A stretch of DNA of 61,617 nucleotides, filler included, from Collodictyon triciliatum (Eukaryota): NCBI GenBank assembly GCA_043381765.1. It is 5 parts of 5 records of this genome, joined end to end, with 100 filler letters (N's around TTAATTAATTAA, not from the genome) between each part and the next. Parts side by side here need not be neighbours in the genome. Positions count along the whole stretch, not along the records: positions 1 to 13,772 come from JBHJMP010001924.1; 4 more parts are not named here. One strand, written 5' to 3'. Made by a program: the position numbers and the translations under genes. Shown here piece after piece: positions 1-52,081 of this stretch. The number at the start of each line of letters is the position of its first letter. The first letter of the stretch is position 1. The notes beneath the pieces are model-generated. The model was not told where the DNA came from. It made no database searches and worked only from the letters and a program-made list of their open reading frames with translations.

Positions 1-3000
1 GCTGCTACAGCGAGAGACCTTGAAGGGCTGAAGCATCCTGGGCTGAATGTCTTTTTCCATTTTGTCGGATGCACCAATCTCAGCAACTACGTGGAAAGGT
101 TAATTCTATTTCTAATTCTTTTTTTATAGATATGATAAATACTTTGTTTTGGTTTTTCTAAAAAAAATTTTTTAGTGTGTCAATTCGCTTCTGGACTTTG
201 GTCGCAAACTCTGCCAACTTTGTCGAGGAAAAGAAGCAAGAAGCTGGTATTACAGTATTGTATTTTATTTTTATCTTTTAATTTAGTTTAAATGTCGCAT
301 AATTCTTCATGCATTTGCTTTATTTTGCCGCTAGAATACGAAAAAGAGGGACTCCAGGGCTTGCTGAAAATGATTCAGGAGAAAAACAAGTAAAATTTCA
401 ATTTTTATGTATTATTTAAATTATAAAATCGAAATTAAAATACATTGAATCGAATAAAAAAAATTGATATTAAACTATGTTTTATAGGGACGAGAAGTTT
501 GTCTTCCTCATCGATGCCATCAATCAAATCCACCCATCGCAAGGAACGCCAGCTCCGCATCTGCTGACCTGGTTGCCCAAAGAAACGCCAGCTAACGTTG
601 CCATGGTTGTGTCGACCATTCATACCCATGAATCTTGCACGGTATTCATCATTTAATATTATTTTTTGAATATTTTTTTTATTCTTCCTTTCAACTTTTG
701 TGCAGGACCGAGGGATTATTTTTTGAATATGTTTGTATTCTGCATAAAAATGATTTGAGTGGAACTTTAATTAATGTATCTATCATAAGTCTGCCAAACA
801 AAGTGGACTGGAGCCGATTCCTGTCGCCAAGTTGGCCGAGAGCGAAATTAAGGATGGTGTCGAAACATTCCTCATTCGCTATGACAAGACCCTGAACGAA
901 AAGCAAGTTGGAATGATTCTGGATGACCTGGAAGATACTGGTGAGATATTTTTTAAAAAGAGTATATATTTTGATTTAAGTTTTTATAAGGAATGATTTA
1001 GTTATTATTATCTGATATTTCTTATAGGCCATCCGCTCTATCTCCGCATCATTCTGGATGAGGTCAGGGTCTTTGGCGTCTATGAGAAGCTTGACGATGA
1101 ACTGAATACTCTGCTTTCAACCAATGGTGTCATTGAGCTTTACACTCTCATTATCAAGCGCTGGCAACTGAAGTTTGACAGGAAAGGTGAGTATTGATTG
1201 TACATATTTCACAAAAAAAAAGGTAAATTATAATTGCAAATTTTATTGAATACTTTTTTTATCGTACAGTCTCCTCTTCTGATGGAAAAGAGACAATGAA
1301 GGTCGAGTATGTCTCCCTCTCGATGAAGGTTCTCTTTGTTTCCCGCATCGGCCTGAGTGAAGGTGACTTGGACAAGCACATGAAAGATGCGATTGGCACA
1401 GGATTCGAGCTTGCTGAATGGTTTGCTTACTCTTCATTTTATAGAATTGAAAGGTTTATCATTCCCTTTATGTATTATATTTAACTTATTCTTTTATTCA
1501 TTCAAATAGGAAATCCTTTTTCTTTACCCTCATCGAGTCACTTTTCGTCCGCAATGGAAGGTTGGTGTCATTTCTCAATCTTTTTGTTCGTTAATCGGTG
1601 CTTTCGGTACAATTTTATTTGGACATAAAGCTAATAATTGTTTATCATAGATACATGTACTTCCACCAGCTGCTGTTAGAGACCACCAAAAAGGTCTACT
1701 TCTCCGAAAAGAAAGAGATGGAAAAAACGCACGAAAAATACGGAAAATGGCTCTTTGGCCAGTATTCTGAGGCTGCTGACGTGGATGAGGAGCTTGCTGC
1801 TGAGATATGCTACCAGCTTCTGAAGGGAAATTCGTTTGACTTGCTTGTCGAATACATGAAGCAAAAACATGTAATTTCTTAATTTTTATTTTTAATCGAT
1901 TATTCTATACATAATAAAACGACATTCACTGGTTAATTTTTAATATTTTAAGGTTATCAGCATTATGCTTGGTGGTCGCTATCGCTACGAGTTCTTTACA
2001 TGCTGGAGAGCAATCAACGCAAGCGGAGCGGCAAACTACAAAGAAGCCTATGGAAGCTTGGCGAAGGTAATTTATTATTTAATTTTAATTTTTTGAAAGT
2101 AACTACTAACAAATTTAATTATCAATCATGATTTATCTATTAATTATTTTTATAATTATTTGTTGTTTTTCAGTCTTTGGATAATGTGGGAGACCTGCTG
2201 GTTGGATTTTTCTTAGAGTCTTTTGAAAACTCGTTCTTGTTGTCTGTTCTGAATGTGCGTCTTGGAAAGCATCAGACAGAAGGCATGCAATTTATTATTG
2301 TCATTTTTGATGAATTTAAGTCATCAATATGAGTTATATATGGAGACATTTAATAATCTATCAATTTACAGATGCAAAGTCTGCTGATTACCTAAATCTT
2401 GGCCGTGTCTACAAGAACCTCCAAAAGTAAAAAAAACAAAAAATAAAATAATTATAAATAGGACATGAGATGATGATTAAAATGCAAGCTTTCTAAAATA
2501 AAAATCAATTAAACAGCTGGGCTGAGTCCATGGTCTACTATAAGAGATGTCTCGATTCAATTGAGAAAAATACAGATAATACCTTGCGTATTGCCACCAT
2601 TCATGAAGAGATGGGTATTATCTACCAGCAACAGGACAAGTAAGGCTCTCTTCATCGTAAATTAAATTATGAATAATGTTTCAAAAAGGAATTATTCTGA
2701 TTTTGCTTATTTAACAGGATTGATGAAGCTCTTGATGAATTTAAGAAATCACTGGACTTTAGAGTCGAACAACTGGGTGAGAATGACTTGCAAGTGGCCC
2801 AATCACATGACCGCTTCGGAGACATCTATTTGAAGCAGTCAAAGTAAAATTTAATCATTTATATTCGTTAACATTCTGCTTTTATTTTGTAAATATGTGC
2901 ATGCTGATCAATTTTTTATGATAGGAACGAGAAAGCTCTGGCTGAATACAAAAAGGCCATGGAAATCCGCCGAAAGAAAGTTGGAAATGAGCACCCTCTT

Positions 3001-6000
3001 GTCGCAACATCGTACCAGAACTATGGCCATGTCTCTCATGTTAATAAAAAGTTCGTTATTAATTATAAAATTAAATAAAACAATAATTTGAATAATTTCT
3101 CATGTTATAAGTAAAATTTCTATTTCATTAATTTTATAATTAAGATACCCGGAGGCCATCGATGACTATGAAAAAGCGAGATCGATTTTAGGAAAATATT
3201 TGGGCTGGAAGCATGCCTCTGTGGCTGTGATATTGTATTTGATTGCTGATGTCCACCTCAGCAGTGGCCAGTAAGAGTGTAAATATGTTGGAAATATATT
3301 TGTATGCAAATATATATCGGCTTACCGAAAAAATCTTTTGCAGAAACACGAAGGCGTTGTCCGATTTGAAAATTTGCCTCCGTACATATATTTCAGCACT
3401 CGGAGAAAATCACCCAAATGTCATAGTTTGCTACGAAAAAATTGGTGAAATCAACTATGAACTGAATAAGTGGGTTTTATCTGATTTAATCATTTATGTA
3501 ATTCATAATAATAATTCGAATGTCACTAGCCATTATTTTTAACTTATAGCCTAAAGGATTCTCTGGAATCTTTTACAAAAACATTGGAGATAAGAGAAAG
3601 AACTTTAGGAGAAAAACATCCTGATTATGCAAAATCCCTTGAGAATGTTGGCCGAACAAATTTTGAACTCCAAAGGTGCAATTTACTTAATATATTAAAA
3701 TTAGAATAAATTTTGATGATGTAGGGGAAGACCAATCATTGATCACTTATTTGAATGGATATAGATTTGATCAAGTTTCAGAGTATTTAGATAAAGCATC
3801 GATCATCAGAAAAGTATCAAAAACAGTATTATCTTTAACAGATAATTATCAAATTGATAAAATAATTGAATTGATGAAGGACAAGAAAGAGCATGAAGCC
3901 GTCATTCAGCTTTACAAAAGAGCTGCTGTTGGACATGGTGAAAAGTCATCCTATGAAAATTGGGACTGCTGGGTGGCTTGTGAGAATGTACACCAATACT
4001 GCAAAGAGAACAAGCTACATGAAAGTGGCGTGGCATTCTGGGCTGAGATGAGAGACAGATTCGCTGATAAACTGGGATGGATTCACCCCAGAACATTAAA
4101 TTCATGCGAATACTTGTCCGTTCATTCAAAGGAAATCGGAATCAACAAAGAACCTGTCGAGTTTACAAGGGTCAAGGAATTCATCTGTGAAACTCTTGAT
4201 GATGCAAAACTAGATGAGGAATGGAATCGTGAGCAAATTATCGCATCATTATTCAGAATTGTTTACATGTCGAAGACTGATGAAAGCAAATCAAAGGCTG
4301 CATCTGATGCAATCACACTTTTGAATTTCATGAATTTTTCGTTTGGTGGAATGGATTTATCAAACATCAAAATTCCACATGCAAATCTCAGTAACTCAAT
4401 CCTTGATGGTGCAAACTTCACTGGTGCCAACTTGGATGGTGTGCATTTGACAAACTCGATGTTTGGCCATTGTGTTTTTGATAATGCGCATATGAATAAT
4501 GTGAAATTCGGAATTCCTCATGATAAACTAGAAGGTCATACAGTTGATGTCAGGAGTGTTTGCAGTATTCAAGGACCGAATGGTGAATATTGGCTGGCTT
4601 CTGGAAGCGAAGATAAAACAATACGTATTTGGGATGTAGCCACAGGAAACCAAATCAAAATATTAGAAGGTCATACAAGTGCTGTCATCAGCGTTTGTAA
4701 TATTCAAGGACCGAATGGTGAAAATTGGCTGGCTTCTGGAAGTGATGACAACACAATACGCATTTGGGATGTATCCACAGGAAATCAAATCAACAAGTTA
4801 GAAGGTCATAGAAGTGATGTCAATAGTGTTTGCAGTATTCAAGGACCGAATGGTGAAAATTGGTTGGCTTCTGGAAGTGATGACAAAACAATACGCATTT
4901 GGGATGTATCCACGAGAAATCAAATCAACAAGTTAGAAGGTCATAGAAGTGATGTCAATAGTGTTTGCAGTATTCAAGGACCGAATGGTGAAAATTGGTT
5001 GGCTTCTGGGAGTAAAGATAAAACAATACGCATTTGGGATGTAGCCACAGGAAACCAAATCAAAACATTAGAAGGTCATACAGACTATGTCATTAGTGTT
5101 TGCAGTATTCAAGGACCGAACGGTGAAAATTGGTTGGCTTCTGGAAGCAGTGATAGGAGATTACGTATTTGGGATATATCCACAGGAAGCCATATCAAAA
5201 CATTAGAAGGACATACAGATACTGTTATGAGTGTTTGCAGTATTCTAGGACCGAATGGTGAAAATTGGTTGGCTTCTGGGAGTAAAGATAAAACAATACG
5301 TATTTGGGATGTATCCACAAGAAACCAAATCAAAATATTAAAAGGACATAGAAATACTGTCAATAGTGTTTGCAATATTCAAGGGCCGAATGGTGAAAAG
5401 TGGTTGGCTTCTGGAAGCAGTGATACAACAATGCGTATTTGGAGCTTTCCCTCCGAAGAGCATACTAGAAAATATAAATTATCCACTCTCATCTGTAACA
5501 GCATTTGCAATATTCAAGGACCGAACGGTGAAATATGGTTGGCTTCTGGAAGTGAAGATAACTCGATAATTATCTGGGATGTGACCACAAGTAATCAAGT
5601 AAAAAAATTGGAAAGAAATACGTGTAGGATAAACTCTATTTTTAGCATGCAAGGTCAAGATAGAGGATATTGGCTGGTCACTGGAGGTGATGATAATTAC
5701 ATACGTATTTGGGATGTAGGCAAAAGAAAAGAAATCAAAACCTTTCAAGGTCATACAAAGAAAGTCAACAGTGTTTGTAATATTCAAGGACCGAATGGTG
5801 AAAATTGGCTGGCTTCTGGAAGTAATGATAAAACAATACGTATTTGGGATGTAGCCACAGGAAATCAAATCAAAACTTTAGAAAACCATACAGATTGGAT
5901 TAGCAGTGTTTGCAGCATTCAACGACCGAATGGTGAAAATTGGTTGGCTTCTGGAAGTTTTGATAAAACAATACGCATCTGGGATGTGGCCACAGGAAAC

Positions 6001-9000
6001 CAAATCAAAACATTAGAAGGTCATACTGAGACTGTCACAAGTGTATGCAGTATTCAAGGACCGAATGGTGAAAGCTGGTTGGCTTCTGGAAGTGATGATA
6101 AAACAATACGTATTTGGGATGTAGCCACAGGAAACCAAATCAACAAGTTAGAAGGTCATACTGATGATGTCATGAGTGTTTGCAGTATTCAAGGACCGAA
6201 TGGTGAGAACTGGTTGGCTTCTGGAAGTGATGATAAAACAATACGTGTTTGGGATGTAGACACAGGAAACCAAATCAACAAGTTTGAAGGTCATACTGAT
6301 GATGTTACTAGTGTATGCAGTATTCAAGGACCGAATGGTGAGAACTGGTTGGCTTCTGGAAGTCTTGATAATACTATTCGTGTTTGGTATTCACTTGAAC
6401 TAATCCAAATTAAAACTGTTAATGTAATTGAATATAATTTTAAGACTTGGTGCAGAATTCGAGGACCGAATGGTGAAAATTGGCTGGCTTCTGGAAGTGA
6501 TGATAAAACAATACGTATTTGGGATATAACCACAAGAAGCCAAATCAAAATATTAGAAGGTCATACAGAATCTGTAAACAGTATTTGCAGTCTTCAAGGG
6601 CCGAATGGTGAAAATTGGTTGGCTTCTGGGAGTGTAGATAAATCAATACGAATTTGGAGTATAACCTCAGGAAATCAAATCAAAACATTAGAAGGTCATA
6701 TAGATGACGTGACCAGTTTATGCGAAGTCAAAGGGCCGAATGGCAACAATTGGTTGGCTTCTGGGGGCAATGATAGAACAATATATATTTGGGATTTGAG
6801 TACCAGTGCTGTGACTAAAATACCAAAGGCTCATTTAAGTGGATTGAAAGTCTTATGCAGTTTTCAAGGACCAAGTGGTGAAAAATGGCTGGCTTCTGGA
6901 AGTGGTGATGAAATAATATGCATTTGGGACGTAGCCACAGGAAATCAAATCAAAATATTAAAAGGTCATACAAGTTATGTGAACAGCATTTGCAGTATTC
7001 AAGGACCAGATGGTGAAAATTGGCTGGCCTCTGGGAGTAATGATAAAACAATACGTGTTTGGGATGTAGCCACAGGAAACCAAATCAAAACACTAGAAGG
7101 GCATACAAACTATGTCAGAAGCGTTTGCAGTATTCAAGGACTGAATGGTGAAAAATGGTTGGCTTCCGGGAGTTATGATAAAACAATACGTATTTGGGAT
7201 GTAGCCACAGGAAACCAAATCAAAAATTTTGAAGAGCACAGGGGTCGAATATACCAAGTCAGCAGTATTCAAGGACCGAATGGTGAAAATTGGCTGGCTT
7301 CCGGGAGTTATGATAATACAATAAGAATTTTGGATTTGTTTGGTACTAGCGAGATAGCAAAGTCGCATATATCCGAAAGAAAATTCAATGAAGATGAATT
7401 AATGCCAGCAGAATACAAAAGAGAAAACATCATCTTAGATGAAAAACTGGACTACAAAACTTTGCCCACATGTAGAGTCATCAATATGCAATCTATTGAT
7501 ATCTTGGGCGGTAAAAAGACCGACGAAAGGAACATAAGTGCAAAAAACATAATAGGATTAAGTCAATTCAATAAATATACTTTAATATCAATTGGTGGTG
7601 TGACCTTCGATGAAACATTTGTCACTTATTGCGAAAGGGGCAAGTTCACAATGTTTCAGGCTCAAATGATGGCTGCATGCTACGAATACGGTTGGGGTAT
7701 TGAGGAAAACAGTGAAAAGGTCAAATACTGGAAATTCACAGCCCCTTTTAAGTTAAATTTAGATTTTAGTGAATTGAAGCAACTAGCACAACAAGGTTCG
7801 AAGGAGGTATTTAATGCGATGAAAGAAATGGCTGAAATAACAGAGGGTAAGCATTACAAATATCCTCAAATTATTTCAATAGTTGCCGAATGTTTTGAAA
7901 ATGGGTGGGGAGTAAACAAAGATGCCGATGAAGCTGCTAAATTGTTTAGATTGGTTGATAACTTCGACGGCATTGCTAGACTAACTCAAAAAGGTTCAGC
8001 TTTATCATTTAAGATTTTGAAAGAAGTGGCTGAAACTAAGGATAAAGATATGTTTAAATATCCAAATGTTATTATAAAGGTCGCTGAATGTTATGAAAAT
8101 GGATGGGGTGTTGAACAGGATACACCATTATCTCTTATCTTCAGAATTAACCATAGTGATGGTGACGAGATTTTTCAGACACTTAGAGAGATGGTACAGA
8201 CTGGGTCTGCGGATGCATTTAAGGCATTAGAAGAAATAGCAAAGTCGGAAAGACACAATAAGTATCCTCAGGTTGTCTCAATAGTTGGTGAATGTTACGA
8301 AAATGGATGGGTAATTCACAAAGATCTTAAAAAAGCAACAGAATGCTTTGGAAAAGCAGAAAAATTCGAAAAACTAAAGCAATTGGCTCAACAGGGTTCA
8401 ATAGATGCATTCGAAGTCTTAAATAAAATTTCACAGACCAAAGAAGATATCAAACACCACATTCAAACGTTAAAAAAAATTGGTGAAAGGTACAAATATC
8501 CTGCGCTATTAAAATTTATTGCTCAATGCTATGAAAACGAATGGGGTGTCAAAAATGATGCTAGAGAGTGGTGCAAATGGTTAGGAATGGCAGAAAATTT
8601 TGAAAAACTGAAGATATTGGCTCAACAGGGTTCAAAAGACGCCTTTGAAGTCTTAAATAAAATGTCAGAGATGAAAGAAAATGTATATCATAAAGAGACA
8701 AGTTTAAGAATCGGTGAAAAGAACAAATATCCTCAAGCTGTTTCGATTGTCTCTCAATGTTACGAGAATGGTTGGAGCGTTGACATTGATAATATAGTGG
8801 ATTGGTGCACACTTAACAAAAATTTTCTAAAACTGACGCAGTTAGCGCAGCAAGGTTCAAGAAAGGCATTCGTCAAATTGAAAGAATTTTCAGAAAAGAA
8901 AAGAAATGTTCTGAAACACAAGACATTTGGAGAAAAGATCGGAGAAGAGCTAGTTTATCCACAAGTCGCTGGTCTTGTGATTGAGTGCTACGAAAATGGA

Positions 9001-9513
9001 TGGGGAGTTGGAATCGAAGATGTGGTTAATTGGTACGTACATACTGAAAATTATGAAAGTTTGAAGATATTGGCCCAAAAAGGTCATGTTGAGGCATTAA
9101 ATACTTTGTTGGACTTGGCAGAGTGTAAAGAACACGTTTTGGACCGTTGGGGAAGAAAAACTGGCGAGAGGTCAAAATATCCATCGGCGATTCATATTGT
9201 CATCGAATGCTATGAGAATGGATGGAGTGTAGAAAAGTGCCTCAGAAAAGTGTGCAATTGGAGAGGAAAAGCCGAGCAATTCGATGAACTAAAGAAATTG
9301 GCTCAGCAAGGTTTAACAGAAGCATTTGATGCTATTAAGTCGTTGGCGGAAATGAAGGAAGAAATCTTTAAGCACGGTAAAAGAACTGGAGATTTCAAAG
9401 TCAAATATCCAGCAAGTATTCTCATACTCGCAGAATGCTATGAAAATGGATGGGGAACAGTAGTAGACATTGAAAAGGCTGTGGAAATAAGGAAAAAATC
9501 TCCAGCCCAATAA
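1..9513 (+). CDS. NLR/STAND-like multidomain protein (NACHT - TPR - pentapeptide - WD40 x21 - SEL1-like x9), 5' end outside window
   Basis: Manual splicing gives one open frame over about 19 exons. NACHT motifs of the NPHP3/TEP1/NWD type: VFFHFVGC (49-72), Walker B FVFLIDAINQ...LTWLPKETPANVAMVVST (488-641) and GHPLYLRIILDEVRVFGVYEKL (940/1029-). TPR exons at 2517-3675 are followed by a final exon 3765-9513, the bulk of the 1924-aa ORF, ending in TAA. Walker A lies upstream of base 1. Confidence 0.9.
674..714 (-). mobile_element. Minimal LINE 3'-end insertion in an intron of the NACHT gene
   Basis: The minus strand reads CCTGCACAAAAGTTGAAAGGAAGAAT-poly(A). Perfect 16-bp TSD ATTATTTTTTGAATAT at 658-673 and 715-730. 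Confidence 0.75.
2517..3675 (+). other. Six TPR-encoding exons, one repeat per exon, all phase 2-2
   Basis: Exons 2517-2639 (123 nt), 2718-2843, 2925-3050, 3145-3270, 3344-3469 and 3550-3675 (126 nt each), all with GT-AG borders. Each encodes a 41-42 aa TPR of the kinesin-light-chain/TPR_10-12 type, e.g. NEKALAEYKKAMEIRRKKVGNEHPLVATSYQNYGHVSHVNKK. Confidence 0.9.
4250..4512 (+). other. Pentapeptide-repeat domain with preceding SK..AASDAITLL helix
   Basis: LFRIVYMSKTDESKSKAASDAITLLNFMNFSFGGMDLSNIKIPHANLSNSILDGANFTGANLDGVHLTNSMFGHCVFDNAHMNNVKFG shows A(N/D)LxxA-type pentapeptide periodicity. Confidence 0.85.
4525..7340 (+). repeat. Coding tandem array of 21 WD40 repeats, 135-nt (45-aa) unit
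   Basis: GAAGGTCATA recurs at 4531, 4666, 4801, 4936 (135-nt spacing). Consensus TLEGHTxxVxSVCSIQGPNGENWLASGSxDKTIRIWDVATGNQIK; 21 copies counted in the translation. Confidence 0.95.
7660..9500 (+). repeat. Nine expanded SEL1-like coding repeats
   Basis: Nine C(Y/F)ExGWxV-type motifs; from the second onward each is preceded by LAQQGS..AF..L and (K)YP, with variable-length spacers. Confidence 0.75.
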
Positions 9514-9978
9514 AGGTATATTAAATAGTGGTTATTAATAATAATTAGTAATGAAATCATCTTAATTTTCCATGTTTAAATAATTAGATGTGACTCCAAT
9601 TTTGATGCATCAGCCTAAGTGTTTTTATTTCACAAGGATTTCTAAGAATTCAGTAAAAAAAAAAAATAAATTTGCTTTTGCGCTGTACCCGATCAAGTTA
9701 TGGATTCCTTTTATGAATTTTTTTATATTTCATAAAAAGAAAAAAAAGGTTAATGAGCAACACTTGAAATCCGATTTTAGAGAATTATCACACTATGTGA
9801 ATAGATTTGCCACGCGTTGATAATAGGTATGGCGAATAATAAAAATATGTATTCTTGAACAATTATCAAAGGGAATGTATTGCAGTACTAATTGAGTGAA
9901 GTCGCGTAATTTACCTTCTAACACTGAAAAAAATTGGTCATCGAAAAATTGGGAGCCCAGGAGTTAAAGCTCTTGATA

Positions 9979-10985
9979 TTTTATTATTCTTTCAATTTTT
10001 TTTGCAGGATAGTGGAGATGTTGGCTTTGGTTCGCTAGCCATTGTTTGCATGGACGCTTCTTGGTGGCCGGGTGGCGGAGAAGTAGTCGGTAATCAGGAA
10101 CTACATCCTGCACTTTGGCCTGTAGCCTGGTCTTGTGCTTGCATGAGAGATACAAGGCGAGGTTTAATATCCTTCTCAGCCTCTTTCCACATGTATCTCT
10201 CACAGGGTCTGAGTAGTAGAGAACGTGCTGGTGGCGAAGGGAGCTATTGAGACAAGAGATTTGTATGATGTCATCCAGCCTGTTATCAGGAATGGGTGGC
10301 TGGTGCTTGAGTCTTGCTTTGCGTGAGTATATGCGCGCTATCCACATAGTCCATAGCAAATGGCCTCACGTCACTGCCCAGAATGTTTTTGCATCTGGAC
10401 GCAGCTGTTGCAGAGGCCCAAATATCGCCTGGATTGAGCCAACAGCCGCAGCCGTCTTGAGAGTCAGTCGAAGAATCTCTGGCTGTTTCGCGCAGGTTTT
10501 GAGCGAAGAGACATTGCACAAATGTGTGCTCAATGGATTCATCACCGTTGCTGCAAAGCGTGCATTGTTGGGAGACTTTGCCAGCTTATGCCGCGCGTGC
10601 GCCTATCCACAGCTCCCTATTGGTGATATTAAGCATTAGAGAGCGGTGATTTGGAAGGACTTGCGGGGTTCGTGCTTGTCTCCAGCTCGCGGTGACCGGG
10701 TGTGTGGGTGATGCCTAGTGTTTCTCCTCATCGTTGATGTTTTGACTTTTTGTAGGGTATCGGCGGCGATATTTTGTATCGAAAGAATTTGGAGTAGGCA
10801 TAGCCATCGAGAACTGCATAGACTGCGCATCGTTAGACGAGCGTTCGTTCTTGAGGCGGAAAAAGAATGGCGACGGGATGTCGTATGAGATTGGTCTGCG
10901 TGAGCGCCATTTTCCTTCGTTATTCAGGACGGCTGTGGTTGGCTGTGCATCTTGTGTGCGGAATGCGGTGGAGCCTGGCGTTGTG
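9979..10985 (-). mobile_element. Degenerate 3' portion of an L1/Tx1-type non-LTR retrotransposon (ORF2 C-terminus plus tail)
   Basis: GC-richer block. The minus strand encodes CTLCSNGDESIEHTFVQCLFA (10500-10564; CCHC zf-RVT motif) and, in a shifted frame, HLLWTMWIAR, with in-frame stops. It ends in ...CCTGCAAAAAAAATTGAAAGAATAATAAAAT, which matches dispersed short copies that have TSDs. The 5' boundary is approximate. Confidence 0.75.
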
Positions 10986-11426
10986 ATGTATGAGCCTTTC
11001 TGTTTGTGTAATATTAAAACTCAAAAATTCAAAAGATGACAAACAAGCCCTTGCCTTAGCCCAGACAGAACCCACCCATAAACCTTCCACCAAACATGCA
11101 TTTCAGAAAAGCATACTGTCCACACTTGTGGCGGTAATCATGTTGTTTGGAGCCAATATGTTGACTTTCAGTCGCAATGGCTATACGGCTTTCCTTTCGA
11201 ACTCCTGATTCGCCTCTCAGCGTTTCGTCTCAAATCACTTATAACAAAACTTTGTGTGTTTGTTTGCGTAATGCGCCCATTTTGAAAGTCTCGGTAGATG
11301 CTTAATTTTACATGAATTGATTTTGTGCAGTTATTTTTTTTAATTAAATTGACTGATTGACTAAAGTTTTATTAAATTGAAAACTCGGTTGTTTTCTAAA
11401 GAAAAATTAAAAACAAATACTTTCAC

Positions 11427-13436
11427 ATGAATAAAAGAAAACGTCTTCAGTCTGATAATTTAAAGTCTGTAAAACAAGACTATCGAAATGTAAAAACATA
11501 TCTAAGGCCGATTGTAAAGAATGCGGATGACTATGACAAAAATCAACGATACGGCTTTATTGTGTCATAACTTGGTTACCGACACTTATCTATTTGCAAG
11601 ATGTTACATATTGAAATCACAACCACTCCCAGCAACCGATGGAAAGTTTTTTTTGTACGCTTTAAAGGCAGTCATAATAGTTTCACAAGATAGACCCACA
11701 CGTTTAAAAAAAACCAGATATGAGAGACGACAAGATGACTTTTTATCCCAATGATTTTCGATTCCTTTTGTCCCGAGAAGAACGCTTTCTGTTCGTCGGA
11801 CTGTCTCATGTATTACCATACTTGGCGAGCCAAATGTTAGCAGCTTATCGTAATAACATCACGGAACATTTTGTAAAGAGGTTACTGCGCTTTATAAATC
11901 AATCAGTCACTAAACATGTGAATATTACGGAAGCTATTCAAAAGCCAGAGCTACGAAAGTTAAAAAAAGCCGTCTTCATGAATCTCGACATGCTGGAACA
12001 ATAAATGATGAGCTAAAACGCATTTGCATCATATCATCTCAGCGATATTGTAAATGGTATCGAATATGACTCAAAGTCAATCCAAATAAGTACATTCCAT
12101 GTCTGATTCGCATGAATAGCATTTTGGAGGACATTGAACCAAACAGTTTCAACCAATCCCTATAAAAACGAACAATATACCATCATGTCATATTACTCTA
12201 GATACTGCATGTTTGATAGATATATTAGTATCGCCTGGAAAACAATTATTACTGAAGAATATATCAGGATGCAAAGAGACCCTATGGGATAAGTTCTTTG
12301 AAATGAAGAAGAGGGTCTTTCATCAAAGATACTACAATTTAATATACATGATACAAGCAGACGGCTTGGTGGTGTCTTTATTGTTTGAAAAGAAAGGCAT
12401 TTCAAATTCAAGGTCCTATTTATAATTAAAAATCCAAGAACATGTTTTATATGAACTTTCCGAATAGCAGTTATCTTTATTAGCGACAAAAAAAAATAAT
12501 AGTTTGAGTGTACGCAGGCAAGATTAATTTGATTTACATGGTGGATGAGACAGGTACGAAATTACGTTACACGGCACACCAAACAAGACATGATAGCAAA
12601 TCTCTTAAAAATCACAAAATACTCTTGTGAGAAAAAAAGAAAAGTACGATGCTTAAGGGATATACATGGCAACAGGTTTACAGAGTGTTGTTTCTTTTGG
12701 TCACATGACTTTTGAAGAGAATCAGCGGTTTGGGACATCAAGAGTATCTTTAATCGATTTAGAGACAGAACTAAGTAAACAAAATTCATGCACGGTCGAT
12801 TATGAAAAATTCGAAAATATGTATCTATATATATGAAATAAAGATACCAGATAGAATTTTCCAGATTTTACGAAGCAAGCAACTTTTCGAAAGATGATAT
12901 GGAGTCTGTATGTTAATACAAAAAGAAGTGAAGTATTGTTTATGGAACGTATCGAAAAGACATTTGGCAAGGATGTTGTACTGGCGTATGGAGACTGGAG
13001 CAGAAAATGTCCGATGAACCTTTTCATGCCAACAATCGGAAGAGGATTACGAAAAATACTATCCAAACGTTTAGAAACAGTTATTGAAGATGAATTTAGA
13101 ACCTCCAAGATGTGTTGTAACTGCGAAAAGAAACTGGAATATATGAAACTGAAAGGAAATTAAAAAAAAGTTGCATATATATGTTTCATATGTAAAGAAT
13201 GCAATCGCTTAGAAAACAAACAAAAAATCGTATTCTTGACAATTGACTTTAACAGCGCTAAAAATATACTCAAGAAAGTTCTTCAAATTCTTCAAAAAAA
13301 ACATACATATCTCTCTAAAGAAATCAGGCTGTTATGTCTCACCTGGCAGCCTTCACCACTACACAATCTTTGTGAAAAAAATGGTGAGACCATGGAAACT
13401 GGCGCACCAAGTTTACCAATCGAAAGATTGGTATAA
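11427..13436 (+). pseudogene. Fanzor1-type (TnpB/Cas12-related) RNA-guided endonuclease pseudogene
   Basis: Frameshifted fragments in family order: MNKRKR start, KINDTALLCHNLVTDTYLFARCYIL, YLASQMLAAYRNNITEHFVKRLLRFIN, MIQADGLVVSLLF, degenerate RuvC-I IIV*VYAGK..IYMVDETG.KLRYTA (12496-), ETELSKQNSCTVDYEKF, IEKTFGKDVVLAYGDWSR..FMPTIGRGLRK, RuvC-II DEFRTSK (13089-), zinc finger CCNC...CKEC and RuvC-III TIDFNSAKNIL. No introns; several stops and frameshifts. Confidence 0.88.
12657..12749. mobile_element. 93-bp insertion with TTAA target-site duplication (possible Kolobok-type non-autonomous element)
   Basis: TTAA at 12653-12656 and 12750-12753. Removing the insert joins EKKK..Y to LIDLETELSK, as expected for Fanzor1. 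Termini are GG...CT, with weak inverted-repeat similarity and an internal GTCACATGAC near-palindrome. Confidence 0.5.
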
Positions 13437-13475
13437 CCCTTCCAGTATTTTATGAAAGTTTTTTTTATTCACGAC
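13321..13475 (+). ncRNA. Candidate Fanzor omegaRNA scaffold
   Basis: Overlaps the Fanzor 3' end. Stems: AGGCTG(13326-31)/CAGCCT(13347-52); GTCTCACC(13336-43)/GGTGAGAC(13383-90); CACAA/TTGTG; TACCAATC-GAAA-GATTGGTA (13414-33); TGGAA/TTCCA. Boundaries are inferred. Confidence 0.5.
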
Positions 13476-13772
13476 AGACTTAGCTGTTGGTGCCCATGCC
13501 AACAATCTTTTTTCCAACCACCAAGCAAGTATTCCGAGGTAAAAAGAAAGTAATGGCGGATGTGCCATCAGAGGAGTATGGAGATGGGGGATAGAGAAAG
13601 GAGAGAAAAGAGGATTAGGAGGAATAGGAAAGGGAGTAAAGACCCTGGGGCTTGATAAGAGGCCCAGGGATTCCTTTCAGGATAGAACTTGTGGTGAAGT
13701 CCTTGGGAGAGGGAAAGTAGCGGGCTTGATTATGTTTAGAAGGGAGCGGAAGAGGATGGGAATACTACTTTG

Positions 13773-13872
13773 NNNNNNNNNNNNNNNNNNNNNNNNNNNN
13801 NNNNNNNNNNNNNNNNTTAATTAATTAANNNNNNNNNNNNNNNNNNNNNNNNNNNNNNNNNNNNNNNNNNNN
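13773..13872. other. Artificial contig spacer (44N-TTAATTAATTAA-44N)
   Basis: Identical 100-bp structure occurs four times; the core gives stops in all six frames. Confidence 0.97.
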
Positions 13873-13968
13873 TATTTGTATTTGTATTTGTATTTGTATT
13901 TGTATTTGTATTTGTATTTGTATTTGTATTTGTATTTGTATTTGTATTTGTATTTGTATTTGTATTTG
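13873..13968. repeat. (TATTTG)n microsatellite
   Basis: Direct reading. Confidence 0.95.
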
Positions 13969-14340
13969 TTTGTTTTTTGCAAAGTCATGGCAACAACACA
14001 AAGAGAAAGAGTGTTGCGTCCCATTAGCGCATGCCTGGTGATTTCAAAAAGATGCACAAACGACGCTGCGTTGTAGAAAAACCTTCGCCATGGCATAGTA
14101 TCCACCAAACAAAGACATGAAAATAAATTTACATTAAATTCCACAAACGTAATTTCGGTTACCGCGCCAATCAGACATCCAATCCCAGACAAAACACCTT
14201 CGCCTACAAGAGCGTAATGTGCCGAAGGATTTCCGCATGTCTGCCACGCGACTGCCAGGAGGAAGGAAGCCAACTGACCCATTAAAGCGACACACGAAAG
14301 CCTGATTCGATTGATATTCTCAACAAATGAAAGCCATAGA

Positions 14341-22865: not shown

Positions 22866-25800
22866 CTATTTCCTGCTGGCCTTGGCGCACTGATCCAAAT
22901 ACCACTTCTTGTACTGCGAGAAGTCTCCGTCGAACGATGTAACTGTTTGTGATTGCAGGAGCCACAATTCATCACACGTGGCCGATATCAAATGCTCGTC
23001 GTGGCTTACAATCAACACGCCACCTTCGTACAGACTCAGAGCCTGAATGAGTGCTTGCACAGTATCCAAATCCTACAAAGATGGGTTGCCCTGGTCAGAT
23101 GTTTTCGACGCTTTTCCAAACTCTTTTTTACTTCCATCTTCTGCTATATATGCTTAAAATTGATAGGTGATTGTACCAAGTGATTTGTCGGCTCATCGAG
23201 CAGCATGATGTGCGGCTTGGAATATGCCAGTTTAGCGAATGCGACGCGAGCTTTTTGTCCTCCCTGTAAACTGAGCATGAGTAATATTTTCCCTTATTGT
23301 ATTTTGTTTTTGCTTTTTTCTTGTGGCATTTAATTTCCAATCGATTTTTATGGATTAATAAAATAAAAAAAATTGTTATATCCCGGCATGGAATGACACA
23401 AACAGATAGCGAGTAGATTGGCTGCAGTGCCATCGCCCCAGACACGCCCATGGAACCCAAATGCGCGCGAAGAATCTGTATGATATGACGTGATACACTT
23501 TGTGAGACAAATGGCCACGATAAGGCCAGACTTCTGGCCAAATTTTTTTCGGATTTTTATGAATCAAATATAACCCCAGCACGGAAAGTGGTAAGAGAGC
23601 ATGCAAATAAAAAAATATGAAGATAAAGACCAGAAAGAATTGACTTGATTTATTGGATTTTATTGGATTTTATTTCGTCTCATTTTATCCTGAATATTAA
23701 TACATTATCGATATTATTACGTGTATTATATAGCATATTGAAAATATAACCTGAACAGGGACTTCGGGGTAGGACAACTGCATCATTTCTAGCGGAGTTT
23801 GGCTCATGTTAATCTGGTCCACAAAATGTTGGCTGAAACGCCCAAGACGCAATTTACCATTCCGTAGTACCTTGGTTTGGATAAAGTATTATAACAGTGC
23901 AACAATGTCACGCAAGTATATGCGAATCGCGTAGAAGGTAAGAAGGGGACATTAATCTGTTGTATTTAATGTCCTTTTCTTGAAGTAGAAAAAGAAAATA
24001 AGTGTTTGTCTGTACTATTCCATTCATCGGCTCAAATTCTCCGAAGATGAGGCTCAAGAGCGTGGATTTACCAACTCCATTGGGCCCCACCAGAGCGATT
24101 CGACTCTCTTGGTCAATGTTTAAGTTCAAGTTACGGAACAAGACTCTGCGATAATAATAGAAGGAATAGAGGAAGGTGGAAACGTGTGACATTAACAAAA
24201 CTATTTCAACCCAATATAATTTGAAGTATGATGTAAATTTTCGCAAGGGATTGAATTTAAACCAAAAATATGTTACAATTTTTGGAGCTGTATAAATAAT
24301 TTAAGTTTTATGATAAAGGGAAGAAAATTGTCTTCAAGTAATGATTACTTTTGTGGCGAGTAGCCAAATGTAACATCGATGACTTGAATAAGTGGCTGGT
24401 CGAATTTTGAGTGAATTATGATGATGCAATTGCACAGTATCGTTGAAGGCAAAAATTCTCATATGGCACAATATTTTTCTTTGTAGCTGCCCAATCATTG
24501 TGGATGATAGAAAATTTACTGGCTGCGCTTGCTCGGGATTAGGGAAGTTGAATTGGAAGGCCGGGTCATTGGAAGCTATAAGAGGCAAATACTTTATTCG
24601 TATTAAAGAAGAAAAAAATCGATTCAAGGACTTCACCTTAGAAAAACAAATAATAAAATAAAGAAAAAGAAAAAGAAATGCTTTAGAAAAGAAACAAACT
24701 TTCTGAAAGTGTCATCTTCGACAAAACTTTCAAACGAGACTGTACCATTGATGCTCTTTTGGCATTATAGCGAAAGCGGTCAACAAACTATATGTTTTTT
24801 GAAAGATATGCAATGGTATCAGAACCTGTTGTATTCTAATGTTGCCTATATGGCGTATAGAAAGAGGGCAGACATATGAAAATATACTAAGTTAATTAAA
24901 TATACAGCAATAAGATAAAGAATCAACCTTCTGAATATGTGCTTTCTGGCGCTCTTGTGTTTCAAATGCCCTTGTTTGGCTTTTCAGAACCTCGGCTCTT
25001 TGTTGCTCAAATTCATCATAGTTACCCTAAAGTTTACAGAGATAGTTGAAAATAAGGATATATCAGAATCAAAATGTGAGGAAAATAGTGAGAATATTTT
25101 ATAATAAAATAAAAGTATAACCAGTTGAGTATGAAGCAAACGATGTGATTATAAATTTCAAGTTGGTGGTATGTATGCAAATTCTGATAAAGAAGTGATT
25201 TTTTTTTCAAACTAGACCTTATATCTCTTAATTGTTTTGTCGTGGAAATGCAAAATGTCTGTTACAACACTGTTCAAGAATTCTCGCGCGTGAGACACAA
25301 TAATAAGTGATTTCTTCCAATTCAAAAGATAATCTTCCAGCCACAGCACCGCGTGCAAATCTAGAATTAGAAAATATAGGAGAGAAAAGGAGAGAGAGAA
25401 AAGTCATGTTAGAAATAAACATCAAAGCCTCCCGGCGATGTGCTATATAAATATACTATAAGGCCAAAGAAACTATGATACCAGGGGGGAAAGTGAAAAA
25501 CAGCATGGGATTGAAGAGGATGGGGAAAATTTGGAAATGGAGTAGAGTTACAGTCGGATATAATATACATATACATAATATATTATTCTACCTAAGTGAT
25601 TTGTAGGTTCATCAAGAAGCATGATATCTGGTCCAATAAAAAGCGCACGAGCGAGGGCTATACGCATTCTCCAACCTCCAGAAAATTCCTTTGTGGCTCT
25701 AATATTGAAAATTATAAATATCAACAACGAACAAAAAAAAAAATTGATCGCAAAAATCCACAGAATGATTTCATTTTAAAAAACAAAAGAAAAATTATTG

Positions 25801-27634: not shown

Positions 27635-27734
27635 NNNNNNNNNNNNNNNNNNNNNNNNNNNNNNNNNNNNNNNNNNNNTTAATTAATTAANNNNNNNNNN
27701 NNNNNNNNNNNNNNNNNNNNNNNNNNNNNNNNNN
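27635..27734. other. Artificial contig spacer
   Basis: Same 100-bp structure; ABCF3 is truncated here. Confidence 0.97.
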
Positions 27735-31543: not shown

Positions 31544-33650
31544 TGCTTCAAATTAAATTCTCATGAGGATGTGGTCGCGGTTGTGGATGCCTCAAGAACA
31601 CTTTTGATCAAAAGATATGAATGCTATTATATTTAGATCATCATAATTTTCTAATTACCTTGTCTAGGAATATCTCAGAGATTACTTGCCGACATCCTTT
31701 GGTACTTTTTTGAATATATTCTGTTTCCATTAATCACAAACTGGGAATTTTGCTAACCTTTTTTTTTTATTTACATCTTTTATTTATACATCGCTTAATC
31801 ATGATTTTTTTATGTAAATTAGACTGCATTTCCATATTTTTGATGATTTGCATCATGCATGACCAACAAAAGCAAATATCTGAGGAAGGAATTGCTGCTT
31901 TGAGTAATTATCATTCAACATTAAATTCTAATTTGACGTGGTATATATATATCAATAATTTTTATCAATTTGAAATTGACTACCCATCCAATCTTATAGA
32001 TTCCTATTTCGATGGTTCAATCATTCAATTATGGACTCGATTCAAGACAACATTCGACCTAAATATGGTTGATCTTACATTATTGATATGGTTTCTTTCA
32101 TTCTTATTCTGGTAAATAACGTCTGCCGATATTTCTTTTCATTTTCAGGATAGTGTTAAAACCCTACAACCACGCTCCGTTTGGAGAAACGACACTTCTG
32201 TTCATCACGTAAATACATACAATACCATCAATCTCTATTCTTTCCATGACACTATATTGATCATCGAAACCATTAGATTGCAAAAAAATACGGAGACTTT
32301 GCAGCCTCACTCCTTTCCATCAAGGACCTGTCAAACAATGAAGGAATGCTCCTGCAGAATATCAAAATGCTTCAGAAAGAAATGGACAAGATTTTACTCA
32401 AGTACGACCCAGCACGATGAAGGCATCATTTCATTTCAAACTACATCAAACCCAAAATATCTATCTAGGATTTCAGAGTGTTTTCCAGTCAAGAAGCATC
32501 AGATCATTTTCCTGATTAATAACTATGATGGCATCCTGATGAATTTGGAGGTTTAATCTTTGCTCACCCCTACCTTTTTTACTTGTCAATTTATTGATTG
32601 ATGAATTATATAAAATCACAAGATTTTCATGTGTGTTTACTTTTAAAAATGTGGGGAAATAATTTCATTCGTAAGCACAGGAGGCTTCTGTTCCCCAACA
32701 AGACGCGAAAATGGTATCAGACCTGCTCTTACAACACACCACGGTTTGCTTTTCTNNNNNNNNNNNNNNNNNNNNNNNNNNNNNNNNNNNNNNNNNNNNN
32801 NNNNNNNNNNNNNNNNNNNNNNNNNNCACACACACACACACACACACACACACAACACACACACACACACCTCGTTATCTCATCATATTTGAAGAATCAT
32901 AAGCTAAGTATTGAACACAGAGATACGCGGAAGACGTTCTTCGAGAATTGTTTGGCCCTCTCATTGACTATGTCTTGGTGAGTGTAAAATGTAATTATAC
33001 TTTAGGCGCTGTGATATTTCACATCTCATCACTGACTAGTGTTTTATCGTTGATGATTTGTTTGATTGTTTGATTGTTTGATTGTTTGATTGTTTGATTG
33101 TTTAATTGTTTGATTGCTCTCACTAGACCACTGAGCCTCTCCCAAGTGTTCCTGCAGATAATTCATGTAAAGAGACATCTATAACCACAAACACATTTGT
33201 ATTCTCTTGTCCCTGCCGTATGTCGCATTACGCAGGGATTCGCTGATCTTAATATTACTTATGCCTCGTCAGCGCGAGCACAACAGCTTGTGAAAGACTT
33301 TGGGGCGAATTGGACGAAGGTTTTTTTTTTTTTAATATCTTGCATATCATCGTTTTTAAAATGAGGCATCTAGACTTTTCATATACATGTATAAAGACTA
33401 TGTTTTTTTATTCCAATTAACTGTATGAGTTTTACATATCTATCATACTCTCAGCCAATATGTATAATATCATGATTTAGAATATTGGAATGTTGAGCTC
33501 CGCAACACAGCAACACTTCCCCAATCCAAAAAATAGCGCAGAGGTTTTGGGGCTGATTTTTGCCCAGTTGATTTCGTATTACACCCGATTCTTCAACCTG
33601 GTTCGGAAGCTATTCCCAAAGGTTATCTTTTACTGTTGATTTCCGTTGAT

Positions 33651-38125: not shown

Positions 38126-38225
38126 NNNNNNNNNNNNNNNNNNNNNNNNNNNNNNNNNNNNNNNNNNNNTTAATTAATTAANNNNNNNNNNNNNNNNNNN
38201 NNNNNNNNNNNNNNNNNNNNNNNNN
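38126..38225. other. Artificial contig spacer
   Basis: Same structure; the RECQL4 5' half does not continue across it. Confidence 0.97.
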
Positions 38226-39857: not shown

Positions 39858-40230
39858 CCCACGCCCGCACTATCATTCCTTTACAAGTTTCTATATTAAA
39901 TATATACTACATCAATCTTTTTTTCTCTGCTCCATAAATATGTATCTTTGAAAATGAAACAGCCAGACAGGACGACAGCTCTGCCAAACCATTTCTAATT
40001 TTGTAGACCATTTTGCTGGTCTTCTAATATTTACATATCTGCAAGAGCTTGCTGGAATAACGCAAATTATGTTTATTGTAAATCGAAAAAATGATGCTTT
40101 GATAAAGAAAGAGCCCGATTACTTGTTTCTCTATGTTTTTGTTTTTGTGTTCCTTTTTATTTTGTTTCCTTGCGTTACTTTTTTCCCTTCATTGTGGCTT
40201 AATCATCGAGAAAGTCAAATGGGGTTTTAC

Positions 40231-50980
<10,750 letters not shown>

Positions 50981-51981: not shown

Positions 51982-52081
51982 NNNNNNNNNNNNNNNNNNN
52001 NNNNNNNNNNNNNNNNNNNNNNNNNTTAATTAATTAANNNNNNNNNNNNNNNNNNNNNNNNNNNNNNNNNNNNNNNNNNNN
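51982..52081. other. Artificial contig spacer
   Basis: Same structure. Confidence 0.97.

What the first reader, a model, noticed from the sequence alone, without database searches (positions are those of the whole stretch)
11427..13436. Fanzor1 RNA-guided nuclease relic in this genome
Seen: all Fanzor1 landmarks in order over about 2 kb, including GDWS, the glutamate DEFRTS just before the CCNC..CKEC zinc finger, RuvC-III D and an N-terminal KRKR NLS-like motif. RuvC-I reads IIV*VYAGK, three single-base changes from IIVGVDPGK. Established: Fanzors are eukaryotic TnpB descendants that act as programmable DNA nucleases, and the repositioned RuvC-II glutamate is a family hallmark. Inference: this copy is dead, but it marks a Fanzor transposon family in this lineage, and intact copies or a consensus could yield a new nuclease.
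Basis: partly seen in the sequence, partly recalled or inferred. Interest (0 to 1): 0.78.

Follow-up and report, generated by a model that had tools for sequence, protein, structure and literature searches.

The report
Dead Fanzor1 nuclease gene copy
This stretch is a broken, non-working copy of a Fanzor1 gene (a jumping-gene RNA-guided DNA cutter of eukaryotes and giant viruses); the call is correct, but such relics are common and this one is ordinary.

Summary
Window 11427-13375 (+) is colinear with a whole 648-aa intact relative (P0002): tblastn E 5e-105, 59% identity over 629 codons, with 8 in-frame stops and 11 frameshifts. A read-through piece matches solved Fanzor1 proteins (Parasitella E 9e-10, Spizellomyces 4e-4). 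P0002 matches all three solved Fanzor1s (E 2e-28 to 4e-23).

The copy is dead. The RuvC-I Asp-Pro is lost, and so is the Arg beside the RuvC-III Asp.

Its nearest kin are a small clade of metagenome proteins, then giant-virus Fanzor1s (DUF8286). In those, the gene lies in IS630/Tc1-type elements with 32-38 bp inverted ends. The window has no transposase relic, no such ends and no match to their 3' RNA module.

Many short contigs 80-99% alike in public runs suggest a multi-copy family, and several lesions are private to this copy. No intact close copy was seen, and no genome was held.

Verdict: new member of a known kind, low interest. The scan already holds 1459 Fanzor notes on other DNA.

The parts
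11427..13375 (+). Fanzor1 pseudogene, colinear with the whole 648-aa relative P0002; 8 in-frame stops and 11 frameshifts
   Evidence: tblastn E 5e-105. Frameshift-aware alignment: 629 codons, 59.1% identity. Stops at 12006, 12009, 12423, 12465, 12505, 12654, 12839, 13161. Frameshifts at 11538, 11707, 11993, 12039, 12071, 12139, 12489, 12628, 12825, 12875, 13323.
11433..11444 (+). Basic N-terminal KRKR, NLS-like
   Evidence: Position. All 5 relatives start with a Lys/Arg-rich N-terminus. NLS function is inferred from passages of PMC10530073, not tested here.
12496..12522 (+). RuvC-I remnant IIV*VYAGK: a stop, and Tyr-Ala where relatives have the invariant Asp-Pro of DPGK
   Evidence: D364, P365, G366 and K367 are invariant in 5 of 5 relatives.
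12990..13001 (+). GDWS motif at the place of the canonical RuvC-II strand; there is no Glu here
   Evidence: G521, D522, W523 and S524 are invariant in 5 of 5 relatives.
13089..13106 (+). DEFRTS; the Glu at 13092-13094 lies six residues before the first Cys of the zinc finger (the alternative RuvC-II Glu)
   Evidence: E555 is invariant in relatives. The six-residue spacing rule is from PMC10711439 passages.
13113..13202 (+). C4 zinc finger CCNC ... CFIC/CKEC, its loop broken by a TAA at 13161-13163
   Evidence: C562, C563, C565, C584, C587 and C590 are invariant in relatives.
13242..13268 (+). RuvC-III motif IDFNSAKNI: Asp kept (13245-13247), the preceding invariant Arg replaced by Ile
   Evidence: R603 and D604 are invariant in relatives.
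13326..13437 (+). Cluster of four hairpins (13326-13352, 13362-13374, 13382-13409, 13411-13437) over the 3' end of the relic: possible remnant of the guide (omega) RNA scaffold
   Evidence: RNA fold of 13300-13440: -36.2 kcal/mol, z -3.52, 0 of 200 shuffles as good. This is one sequence with no covariation, and it does not match the viral 3' RNA model. The identification is an inference.
11048..11426 (+). Upstream leader that is repeated together with the gene in other copies; the left border of the repeat lies at about 11048-11093
   Evidence: Contigs of runs X1, X2 and X6 bridge 11048/11093 to beyond the ATG. Depth falls in bin 10996-11091, and loose ends sit at 10942 and 10996.

Best explanation
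This is a dead descendant of a Fanzor1 gene, the eukaryotic and giant-virus branch of TnpB RNA-guided DNA endonucleases. In working form, such a roughly 650-aa protein binds a guide (omega) RNA transcribed from the 3' end of its own gene and transposon end. It cuts matching DNA with a RuvC site made of the RuvC-I Asp (DPG), a repositioned Glu six residues before a C4 zinc finger, and the RuvC-III Asp. That mechanism is established for other Fanzor1s and is inferred here. The window's copy can no longer do this: the frame is broken 19 times, the RuvC-I Asp-Pro is gone and the Arg next to the RuvC-III Asp is gone. It belongs to a small clade known otherwise only from metagenome proteins. The next relatives of that clade are the DUF8286-type Fanzor1s of giant viruses, which ride in IS630/Tc1-mariner-type elements. 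The copy sits in eukaryote-like DNA, between a truncated LINE tail and another repeat, without a transposase. It is one of many diverged copies, so it most likely spread as a mobile element and then decayed neutrally.
For: Homology: tblastn E 5e-105 and a colinear 629-codon alignment at 59% identity. Solved Fanzor1 proteins are hit by the window piece (E 9.1e-10 and 3.9e-4) and by the relative P0002 (E 2.1e-28, 2.7e-24, 3.7e-23).

Motifs: the Glu lies six residues before CCNC, and the zinc finger and RuvC-III Asp are kept. These match the Fanzor features in passages of PMC10711439 and the abstract motif of PMC3627910.

Death: 8 stops of all three kinds and 11 frameshifts, of which only 4 lie in A-runs of 5 or more. 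A 226-nt contig of run X3 is identical over 12255-12480, which includes two of the stops.

Family: a profile of 5 relatives finds 5850 representative proteins at E<=1e-3 and 1204 at E<=1e-30. It also found 77 IMG/VR loci, many named GVMAG. The Atlas neighbours of P0002 are 92-100% Viruses, commonest Nucleocytoviricota, carrying PF26935 DUF8286. In the tree the relic joins P0002, P0178 and P0179 with support 100.

Multi-copy: 133, 179 and 363 contigs were laid at 80-99% likeness from X1, X2 and X6, with up to 18 contigs over one place in X6. Other copies differ from this one at the RuvC-I codon, at 3 of the 8 stop sites and at or next to 5 of the 11 frameshift sites.

Eukaryote context: a zf-RVT LINE tail at 10286-10585(-), and Vps52 and ABC exon-like pieces elsewhere in the window.
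Against: Pfam support is below threshold. No inverted ends, target duplication or transposase relic were found around the copy: the best alignments are no better than shuffles, the transposase tblastn gave best E 1.9, and the viral end motif gave 0 matches. Its mobility is therefore inferred from copy number alone. The covariance model of the viral 3' RNA module finds nothing at the 3' end (best E 0.29, at 12326-12418). Copy number rests on contigs of metagenomes and one coded organism laid at 80% likeness, which may mix organisms. The tool states that depth is no copy number. No genome is held. The window is made of contigs joined by N linkers, so the host evidence from other contigs may not apply to contig 1-13772. 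The tree has no outgroup, so the direction of any virus-host transfer is open.
Confidence: 0.85

Rival explanations
1. The relic came in as part of a piece of integrated giant-virus DNA (an endogenous viral element), not as a transposon resident in the host.
For: The nearest named relatives are giant-virus genes. On large virus-like contigs the relatives sit beside ribonucleotide reductase, HSP70 and mRNA capping enzyme genes. Bao and Jurka argue in the section read that a Hydra contig copy, HMa-1, came from a virus. The neighbouring 1940-aa intron-less WD40/pentapeptide/Sel1 ORF is not clearly a host gene.
Against: No virus hallmark gene lies in contig 1-13772. A LINE tail lies 840 nt upstream. 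Many contigs 80-99% alike cover the gene and its leader, which fits amplification of a short unit rather than one viral insert. The relic's clade is distinct from the viral rows.
Confidence: 0.1
2. The gene is still functional and only looks broken because of a variant genetic code, introns, programmed frameshifts or sequencing errors.
For: Four of the 11 frameshifts lie in A-runs of 5 to 9, the kind of place where reads and polymerases slip. One TGA aligns with Trp of the relative.
Against: All three stop codons occur: TGA 3 times, TAA 4 times, TAG once. They align to different residues. Seven of 11 frameshifts are not in homopolymers. The shifts are of 1-2 bases with no gap in colinearity, so they are not introns. 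Catalytic Asp-Pro and Arg are substituted. A 1940-aa ORF on the same contig is open in the standard code. A run contig reproduces two of the stops exactly.
Confidence: 0.02
3. The copy is protein-dead but its 3' hairpin region is still used as a guide-RNA-only locus serving intact nucleases elsewhere in the genome.
For: Four hairpins at 13326-13437 fold better than all 200 shuffles (z -3.52). Stand-alone 'ghost' loci beside Fanzor loci are mentioned in a figure legend of PMC10432273. Earlier scan notes describe guide-RNA-only elements in giant viruses. The viral relatives have a covarying 3' RNA module: 10 of 12 predicted pairs show compensatory changes.
Against: There is no covariation evidence for the window's hairpins and no match to the viral model. 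No intact nuclease of this family is shown in the organism.
Confidence: 0.08

Closest known systems
Fanzor1 RNA-guided endonucleases with solved structures (Spizellomyces punctatus 8gkh, Parasitella parasitica 9cf0, Guillardia theta 9cer)
   Same: There is significant sequence similarity over the RuvC/zinc-finger half of the window piece and over the REC and RuvC parts of the relative P0002. The motif order is the same: DPG(K), GDWS, Glu six residues before CxxC...CxxC, then (R)D.
   Different: The window copy is a pseudogene with 19 frame breaks and a lost RuvC-I Asp-Pro. Its clade shows no more than about 40% local identity to these proteins in the alignments printed, and at about 650 aa is of ordinary Fanzor size. 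Cleavage, guide RNA and TAM are untested.
Giant-virus Tc1/mariner-type elements carrying Fanzor1 (PGv-1, PUl-1 and Fanzor-only PUl-4; Bao and Jurka 2013, PMC3627910, section 7 read)
   Same: The next relatives of the relic's clade are giant-virus Fanzor1s. They lie divergent to a DDE_3 + HTH_28 transposase inside 32-38 bp inverted ends in L002, L003, L004 and L022. The transposase is directly upstream in 16 of 64 loci with enough upstream DNA, so transposase-less copies are common there too.
   Different: The window has no transposase relic, no similar or any significant inverted ends and no match to the viral 3' RNA module. It lies in eukaryote-like DNA next to a LINE tail.
TnpB of IS200/IS605 and IS607 (e.g. 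ISDra2 TnpB)
   Same: The RuvC-zinc finger-RuvC core is the same, and the guide RNA comes from the 3' end of the element. This rests on established knowledge and passages of PMC10432273.
   Different: TnpB typically has D-hydrophobic-G at RuvC-I and the Glu about 50 residues before the zinc finger. The window family has DPG (in relatives) and the Glu six residues before it.

Membership tests
Fanzor1 | Significant sequence similarity to experimentally characterised Fanzor1 proteins | tested here: met
   Window piece against the PDB: 9cf0 E 9.1e-10, 8gkh E 3.9e-4, 9cer E 0.082. Intact relative P0002: 2.1e-28, 2.7e-24, 3.7e-23.
Fanzor1 | RuvC-I Asp in a DPG motif (PMC10711439 passage) | tested here: not met
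   The window reads *VYAGK at 12505-12522: Asp and Pro are both replaced. DPGK is invariant in 5 of 5 relatives. The copy is therefore a member by descent only, not a working member.
Fanzor1 | Alternative RuvC-II Glu six residues before the zinc finger, and no Glu at the canonical place about 50 residues before it | tested here: met
   E at 13092-13094, then FRTSKM, then CCNC. The stretch about 50 residues upstream reads KDVVLAYGDWSRK and has no Glu.
Fanzor1 | [TS][TS]-x-x-C4 zinc finger (PMC3627910 abstract) | tested here: met
   TSKM-CCNC ... CFIC/CKEC at 13101-13202. The finger loop is interrupted by a TAA at 13161.
Fanzor1 | RuvC-III RD motif after the zinc finger | tested here: inconclusive
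   Asp is kept at 13245-13247, but the Arg that is invariant in 5 of 5 relatives is Ile here.
Fanzor1 | Uninterrupted reading frame of about 600-700 aa | tested here: not met
   8 stops and 11 frameshifts. The longest open piece is 102 aa.
Fanzor1 | Guide (omega) RNA encoded at the 3' end of the gene and transposon right end | tested here: inconclusive
   The hairpin cluster at 13326-13437 has z -3.52, but there is no covariation data and no hit with the viral relatives' model.
Fanzor1 | RNA-guided DNA cleavage next to a TAM | not testable with these tools
   This needs biochemistry. The copy is in any case broken.
Tc1/mariner (IS630)-type Fanzor1 element of giant viruses | Adjacent DDE transposase | tested here: not met
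   tblastn of two viral transposases against the whole window: best E 1.9.
Tc1/mariner (IS630)-type Fanzor1 element of giant viruses | Terminal inverted repeats of the family, with TA duplication | tested here: not met
   0 matches to the 32-nt end with up to 3 mismatches. Local alignments of the flanks, direct or inverted, are no better than shuffles (56 of 300 and 152 of 300 shuffles reach the score). The TA duplication could not be assessed without ends.

The most novel reading that the evidence does not exclude
The relic and its many 80-99% alike copies may mark a eukaryote-resident offshoot of the giant-virus DUF8286 Fanzor1 clade. This offshoot would have amplified without the IS630/Tc1 transposase and with different ends and a different four-hairpin 3' RNA. 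Somewhere in the same organism or its freshwater relatives a natural copy would still be intact and active. That would give both a record of virus-host exchange of an RNA-guided nuclease and a new compact nuclease with its own guide scaffold.
Probability: 0.2. Interest if true: 0.4.

Novelty: new member of a known kind. Interest (0 to 1): 0.2.

Why it matters
It matters little by itself. It is one more decayed Fanzor1 copy in a family with thousands of members, and one that the scan has met very often (1459 notes in at least 234 genomes). Its modest value lies in three points. First, it ties a eukaryote-like contig to a small, otherwise host-less metagenome clade (P0002, P0178, P0179) that keeps all catalytic residues. 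Second, that clade's next relatives are giant-virus genes, which bears on the idea that viruses spread Fanzors (PMC3627910 abstract). Third, the family seems to be multi-copy in at least one named organism. A survey of that genome for natural intact copies would therefore be cheap.

Tried and rejected
- Own-genome search: no genome is held.
- Second copy in the window: none by blastn or tblastn.
- Phage collection tblastn: no match.
- Pfam on the 8 single pieces: no TnpB/Fanzor family.
- Viral collection with P0002 alone: 36 pattern matches, none confirmed.
- Inverted ends: the repeat finder gave only 72-88% arms of 17-25 nt with no sensible geometry. Smith-Waterman of left flank against right flank scored 19 against a shuffle mean of 18.7. 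Resemblances I saw by eye between 11076-11108, 13434-13458 and the viral ends were not above shuffles, so I dropped them.
- Viral end motif: 0 matches.
- Transposase relic: none.
- Covariance model R1 of the viral 3' module: best E 0.29, at the wrong place.
- Rfam (0 matches) and tRNA scan (0 genes) over the window.
- Sequencing runs: only small shares (0.08 or less), and no RNA holder listed.
- Protein search for close fragments of other copies: the best were 63-64% identical, and none was closer.
- Host identity: the Atlas search on the 631-aa ORF 40562-42457(-) gave only a 0.76 lead. Pfam on other ORFs gave Vps52 and ABC pieces and a sub-threshold 7tm_7 hit.
- Earlier findings by place and by sequence: nothing.
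- Variant genetic code: rejected, because all three stops occur and align to different residues.
- No structure prediction or complex prediction was run, since the sequence hits to solved Fanzor1s made them unnecessary.
- Supplementary tables of the Fanzor surveys (PMC10432273, PMC10530073, PMC10711439) are closed. They may already list this family or organism.
- My only literature search was, so I make no claim that the family is not in print.
Full report
**What is there.** On the + strand between 11427 and about 13440, the frames hold only short open pieces; the longest is 102 aa. Together these pieces spell a complete Fanzor1-type protein.
- KRKR 11433-11444
- IIV*VYAGK 12496-12522
- GDWS 12990-13001
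- DEFRTS 13089-13106
- CCNC 13113-13124
- CFIC/CKEC 13182-13202
- IDFNSAKNI 13242-13268

**Is it more than chance?** Pfam alone is weak. None of the 8 single pieces matched a TnpB/Fanzor model. The 194-residue read-through of 12855-13436 (TAA read as X) reached only E 0.0077 for Cas12f1-like_TNB, below the curated cut-off.

Comparison with solved structures is clear. The same piece hits Parasitella parasitica Fanzor1 (9cf0, E 9.1e-10), Spizellomyces punctatus Fanzor1 (8gkh, E 3.9e-4) and, weakly, Guillardia theta Fanzor1 (9cer, E 0.082).

A search of 5.8 billion proteins for longer relatives gave 5 proteins of 634-661 aa (of 579 candidates), all carrying precomputed PF26935. The closest, P0002 (648 aa), aligns to the window at tblastn E 5e-105, with no second locus in the window (blastn self-search). 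P0002 itself hits the three solved Fanzor1s at E 2.1e-28, 2.7e-24 and 3.7e-23.

**State of the copy.** A frameshift-aware protein-to-DNA alignment that I wrote spans P0002 residues 1-642 and window 11427-13363. Of 629 aligned codons, 372 are identical (59.1%). There are 8 in-frame stops (TGA three times, TAA four times, TAG once) and 11 shifts of one or two bases.
- Colinearity is unbroken, so the shifts are not introns.
- All three stop codons occur and align to different residues, so a variant code is excluded.
- Only 4 of the 11 shifts lie in A-runs of 5 or more.
- A 226-nt contig of a public run is identical over 12255-12480, which includes two of the stops.

Among the residues invariant in all 5 relatives, the window has lost the Asp and Pro of DPGK and the Arg before the RuvC-III Asp. 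It keeps GDWS, the Glu, the six cysteines and the RuvC-III Asp. By homology the reading frame ends at the TGA at 13373-13375, not at 13436.

**Family features.** Passages of PMC10711439 state that Fanzors have DPG at RuvC-I and the RuvC-II Glu six residues before the zinc finger, rather than about 50 residues before it. In the window the Glu of DEFRTS is followed by exactly six residues and then CCNC, and the stretch about 50 residues upstream (KDVVLAYGDWSRK) has no Glu. The abstract of PMC3627910 gives the motif D...[TS][TS]-x-x-C4...RD, and the window reads TSKM-C4...ID. Passages of PMC10530073 report N-terminal NLSs in about 60% of Fanzors. The KRKR here, and the basic N-termini of all 5 relatives, fit that, but the function is inferred.

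**Relatives and their elements.** A profile of the 5 relatives finds 5850 representative proteins at E<=1e-3, 3393 at E<=1e-10 and 1204 at E<=1e-30 among 1.84 billion.
- The metagenome scan confirmed 24 of 179 candidate stretches. The IMG/VR scan confirmed 77 of 123, many on contigs named GVMAG.
- On two large contigs, the neighbours are ribonucleotide reductase small chain, HSP70, an LCAT-type acyltransferase, a helicase and an mRNA capping enzyme. Directly upstream on the other strand lies a DDE_3 + HTH_28 transposase.
- Transposase and Fanzor gene lie inside inverted ends of 32-38 nt, 92-100% complementary, about 3.25 kb apart in L002, L003 and L004 and 5.5 kb apart in L022. This is the Tc1/mariner-Fanzor1 arrangement described for PGv-1 and PUl-1 in section 7 of PMC3627910.
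- The transposase is directly upstream in 16 of the 64 loci that have at least 1500 nt upstream, out of 83 loci with a located gene end. Fanzor-only copies are therefore frequent.
- The Atlas places P0002 next to clusters that are 92-100% Viruses, commonest Nucleocytoviricota, with PF26935 named DUF8286. The local Pfam copy did not report that family.

The tree (FastTree, 107 rows, no outgroup, midpoint root for drawing only) used the relic read with X at every break. The rows were 7 metagenome proteins, 66 distinct proteins from 81 loci with an ORF of at least 550 aa, and every third of the full-length representatives (33 rows). The relic joins P0178, P0179 and P0002 with support 100. That clade lies in a 19-row set (support 98) with the metagenome and virus-like loci L001-L012. 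P0002, P0178 and P0179 keep NEFRTSKLCCNC, the second CxxC and TRDFNSANNIL.

**What the window lacks.**
- There is no transposase relic: best tblastn E 1.9 over the whole window.
- There is no match to the viral 32-nt end with up to 3 mismatches.
- There are no inverted or direct end similarities above shuffles.
- The viral relatives have a 3' module with two helices in which 10 of 12 predicted pairs show compensatory changes (57 sequences). A covariance model of it found nothing at the window's 3' end (best E 0.29, at 12326-12418).
- Still, 13300-13440 folds into four hairpins at -36.2 kcal/mol, z -3.52, with 0 of 200 shuffles as good. The neighbouring 13240-13380 does not stand out (z -0.38) and the opposite strand is weaker (z -2.22). 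I read this as a possible remnant of the family's own guide-RNA scaffold. It rests on one sequence only.

**Other copies.** No genome is held. Eight public runs hold small shares (0.08 or less) of the stretch's words: six labelled freshwater metagenome, one subsurface metagenome, and one coded organism. I laid four of them at 80% likeness.
- X1 gave 133 contigs (10 at 99% or more, 15 at 95-99%, 42 at 90-95%, 66 under 90%).
- X2 gave 179 contigs (11/24/70/74).
- X3 gave 2 contigs.
- X6, the coded organism, gave 363 contigs (22/54/152/135).

All 30 bins of 10900-13772 are covered in X1 and X6, and up to 18 contigs cover one place in X6. This is the picture of a diverged multi-copy repeat, although contigs of metagenomes can mix organisms and depth is no copy number.

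In the rows shown (740 letter rows and 164 indel rows were not shown), most other copies differ from the window at:
- the RuvC-I codon (12511);
- three of the eight stop sites (12465, 12655, 12840);
- at or next to five of the eleven shift sites (11538, 12036, 12070, 12631, 12875).

Those lesions are therefore private to this copy. Other copies also carry indels of their own. Contigs bridge from about 11048-11093 across the ATG, depth drops in 10996-11091, and other repeats begin near 13459-13491. The repeated unit is thus about 11048 to 13440. A protein search for fragments of close copies found nothing nearer than 63-64% identity, so no intact close copy is shown.

**Context.** Contig 1-13772 (the window is a chain of contigs joined by N linkers) holds an open 1940-aa pentapeptide/WD40/Sel1 ORF. 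It also holds a zf-RVT LINE tail at 10286-10585 on the minus strand, then the Fanzor unit. Other contigs of the window carry Vps52 and ABC exon-like pieces and a sub-threshold chemoreceptor hit. Rfam and tRNA scans found nothing. The host is a eukaryote that I could not name.

**Verdict.** This is a dead Fanzor1 copy, a member by descent that fails the working-enzyme features. It belongs to a small clade next to the giant-virus DUF8286 Fanzor1s, is probably one of many decayed copies, and has no recognisable transposase or ends. It is a new member of a known kind. The scan has noted Fanzor-related features 1459 times in at least 234 genomes. The notes I used gave me the Bao and Jurka paper and the idea of a conserved guide scaffold in the viral elements, both of which I checked in part. 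Interest is low. The only open prize is a natural intact copy in the same organism.

Noticed in passing
window 13773-13872, 27635-27734, 38126-38225, 51982-52081: N runs of 44 on either side of TTAATTAATTAA (a stop in all six frames). The window is a chain of separate contigs joined by an artificial linker, so the element's contig is 1-13772, and neighbours beyond 13772 say nothing about linkage.
   Followed up: partly
window 3691-9513 (+): An uninterrupted 1940-aa ORF with pentapeptide repeats near the N-terminus, at least 17 WD40 repeats and C-terminal Sel1 repeats. An intron-less giant repeat protein of this make-up is unusual for a eukaryotic host gene, and its origin (host, bacterial-like transfer or viral) was not settled.
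   Followed up: partly
window 10286-10585 (-): A zf-RVT match (E 6.2e-6, 27.2 bits against a cut-off of 27.5): the tail of a 5'-truncated LINE-like retroelement. Run contigs of this repeat diverge from the window at 10942 and 10996.
   Followed up: partly
L025-L101 and L001-L012, last 160 nt up to the right end (alignment A2): The giant-virus relatives share a 3' module that overlaps the end of the Fanzor ORF and runs to a conserved end ...GGCGTTT(T/G)AAATG...AAAGGTGTAA. It has two helices in which 10 of 12 predicted pairs show compensatory changes, which fits their guide-RNA scaffold. The conserved C-terminal peptide of these proteins may be held by the RNA rather than by the protein. An earlier scan note marks this kind of scaffold as already in print.
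   Followed up: partly
L022 2377-7905; L053, L091 and others: In some viral loci the transposase lies further from the Fanzor gene or downstream of it. L022 holds two transposase copies with 35-bp perfect ends 5.5 kb apart, so there are composite or three-gene versions of the element.
   Followed up: no
window 13873-13970: A (TATTTG)n microsatellite of about 16 units at the start of the next contig.
   Followed up: no
window 31714-32556 (+), 23908-24300 (-), 39958-40440 (+): Exon-like pieces matching Vps52_C (E 2e-7 and 3.4e-5) and an ABC transporter (E 3.3e-11), plus a sub-threshold 7tm_7 chemosensory receptor hit (E 1.2e-4, 22 bits against 26.6). These suggest a eukaryote with introns, possibly an animal.
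   Followed up: no
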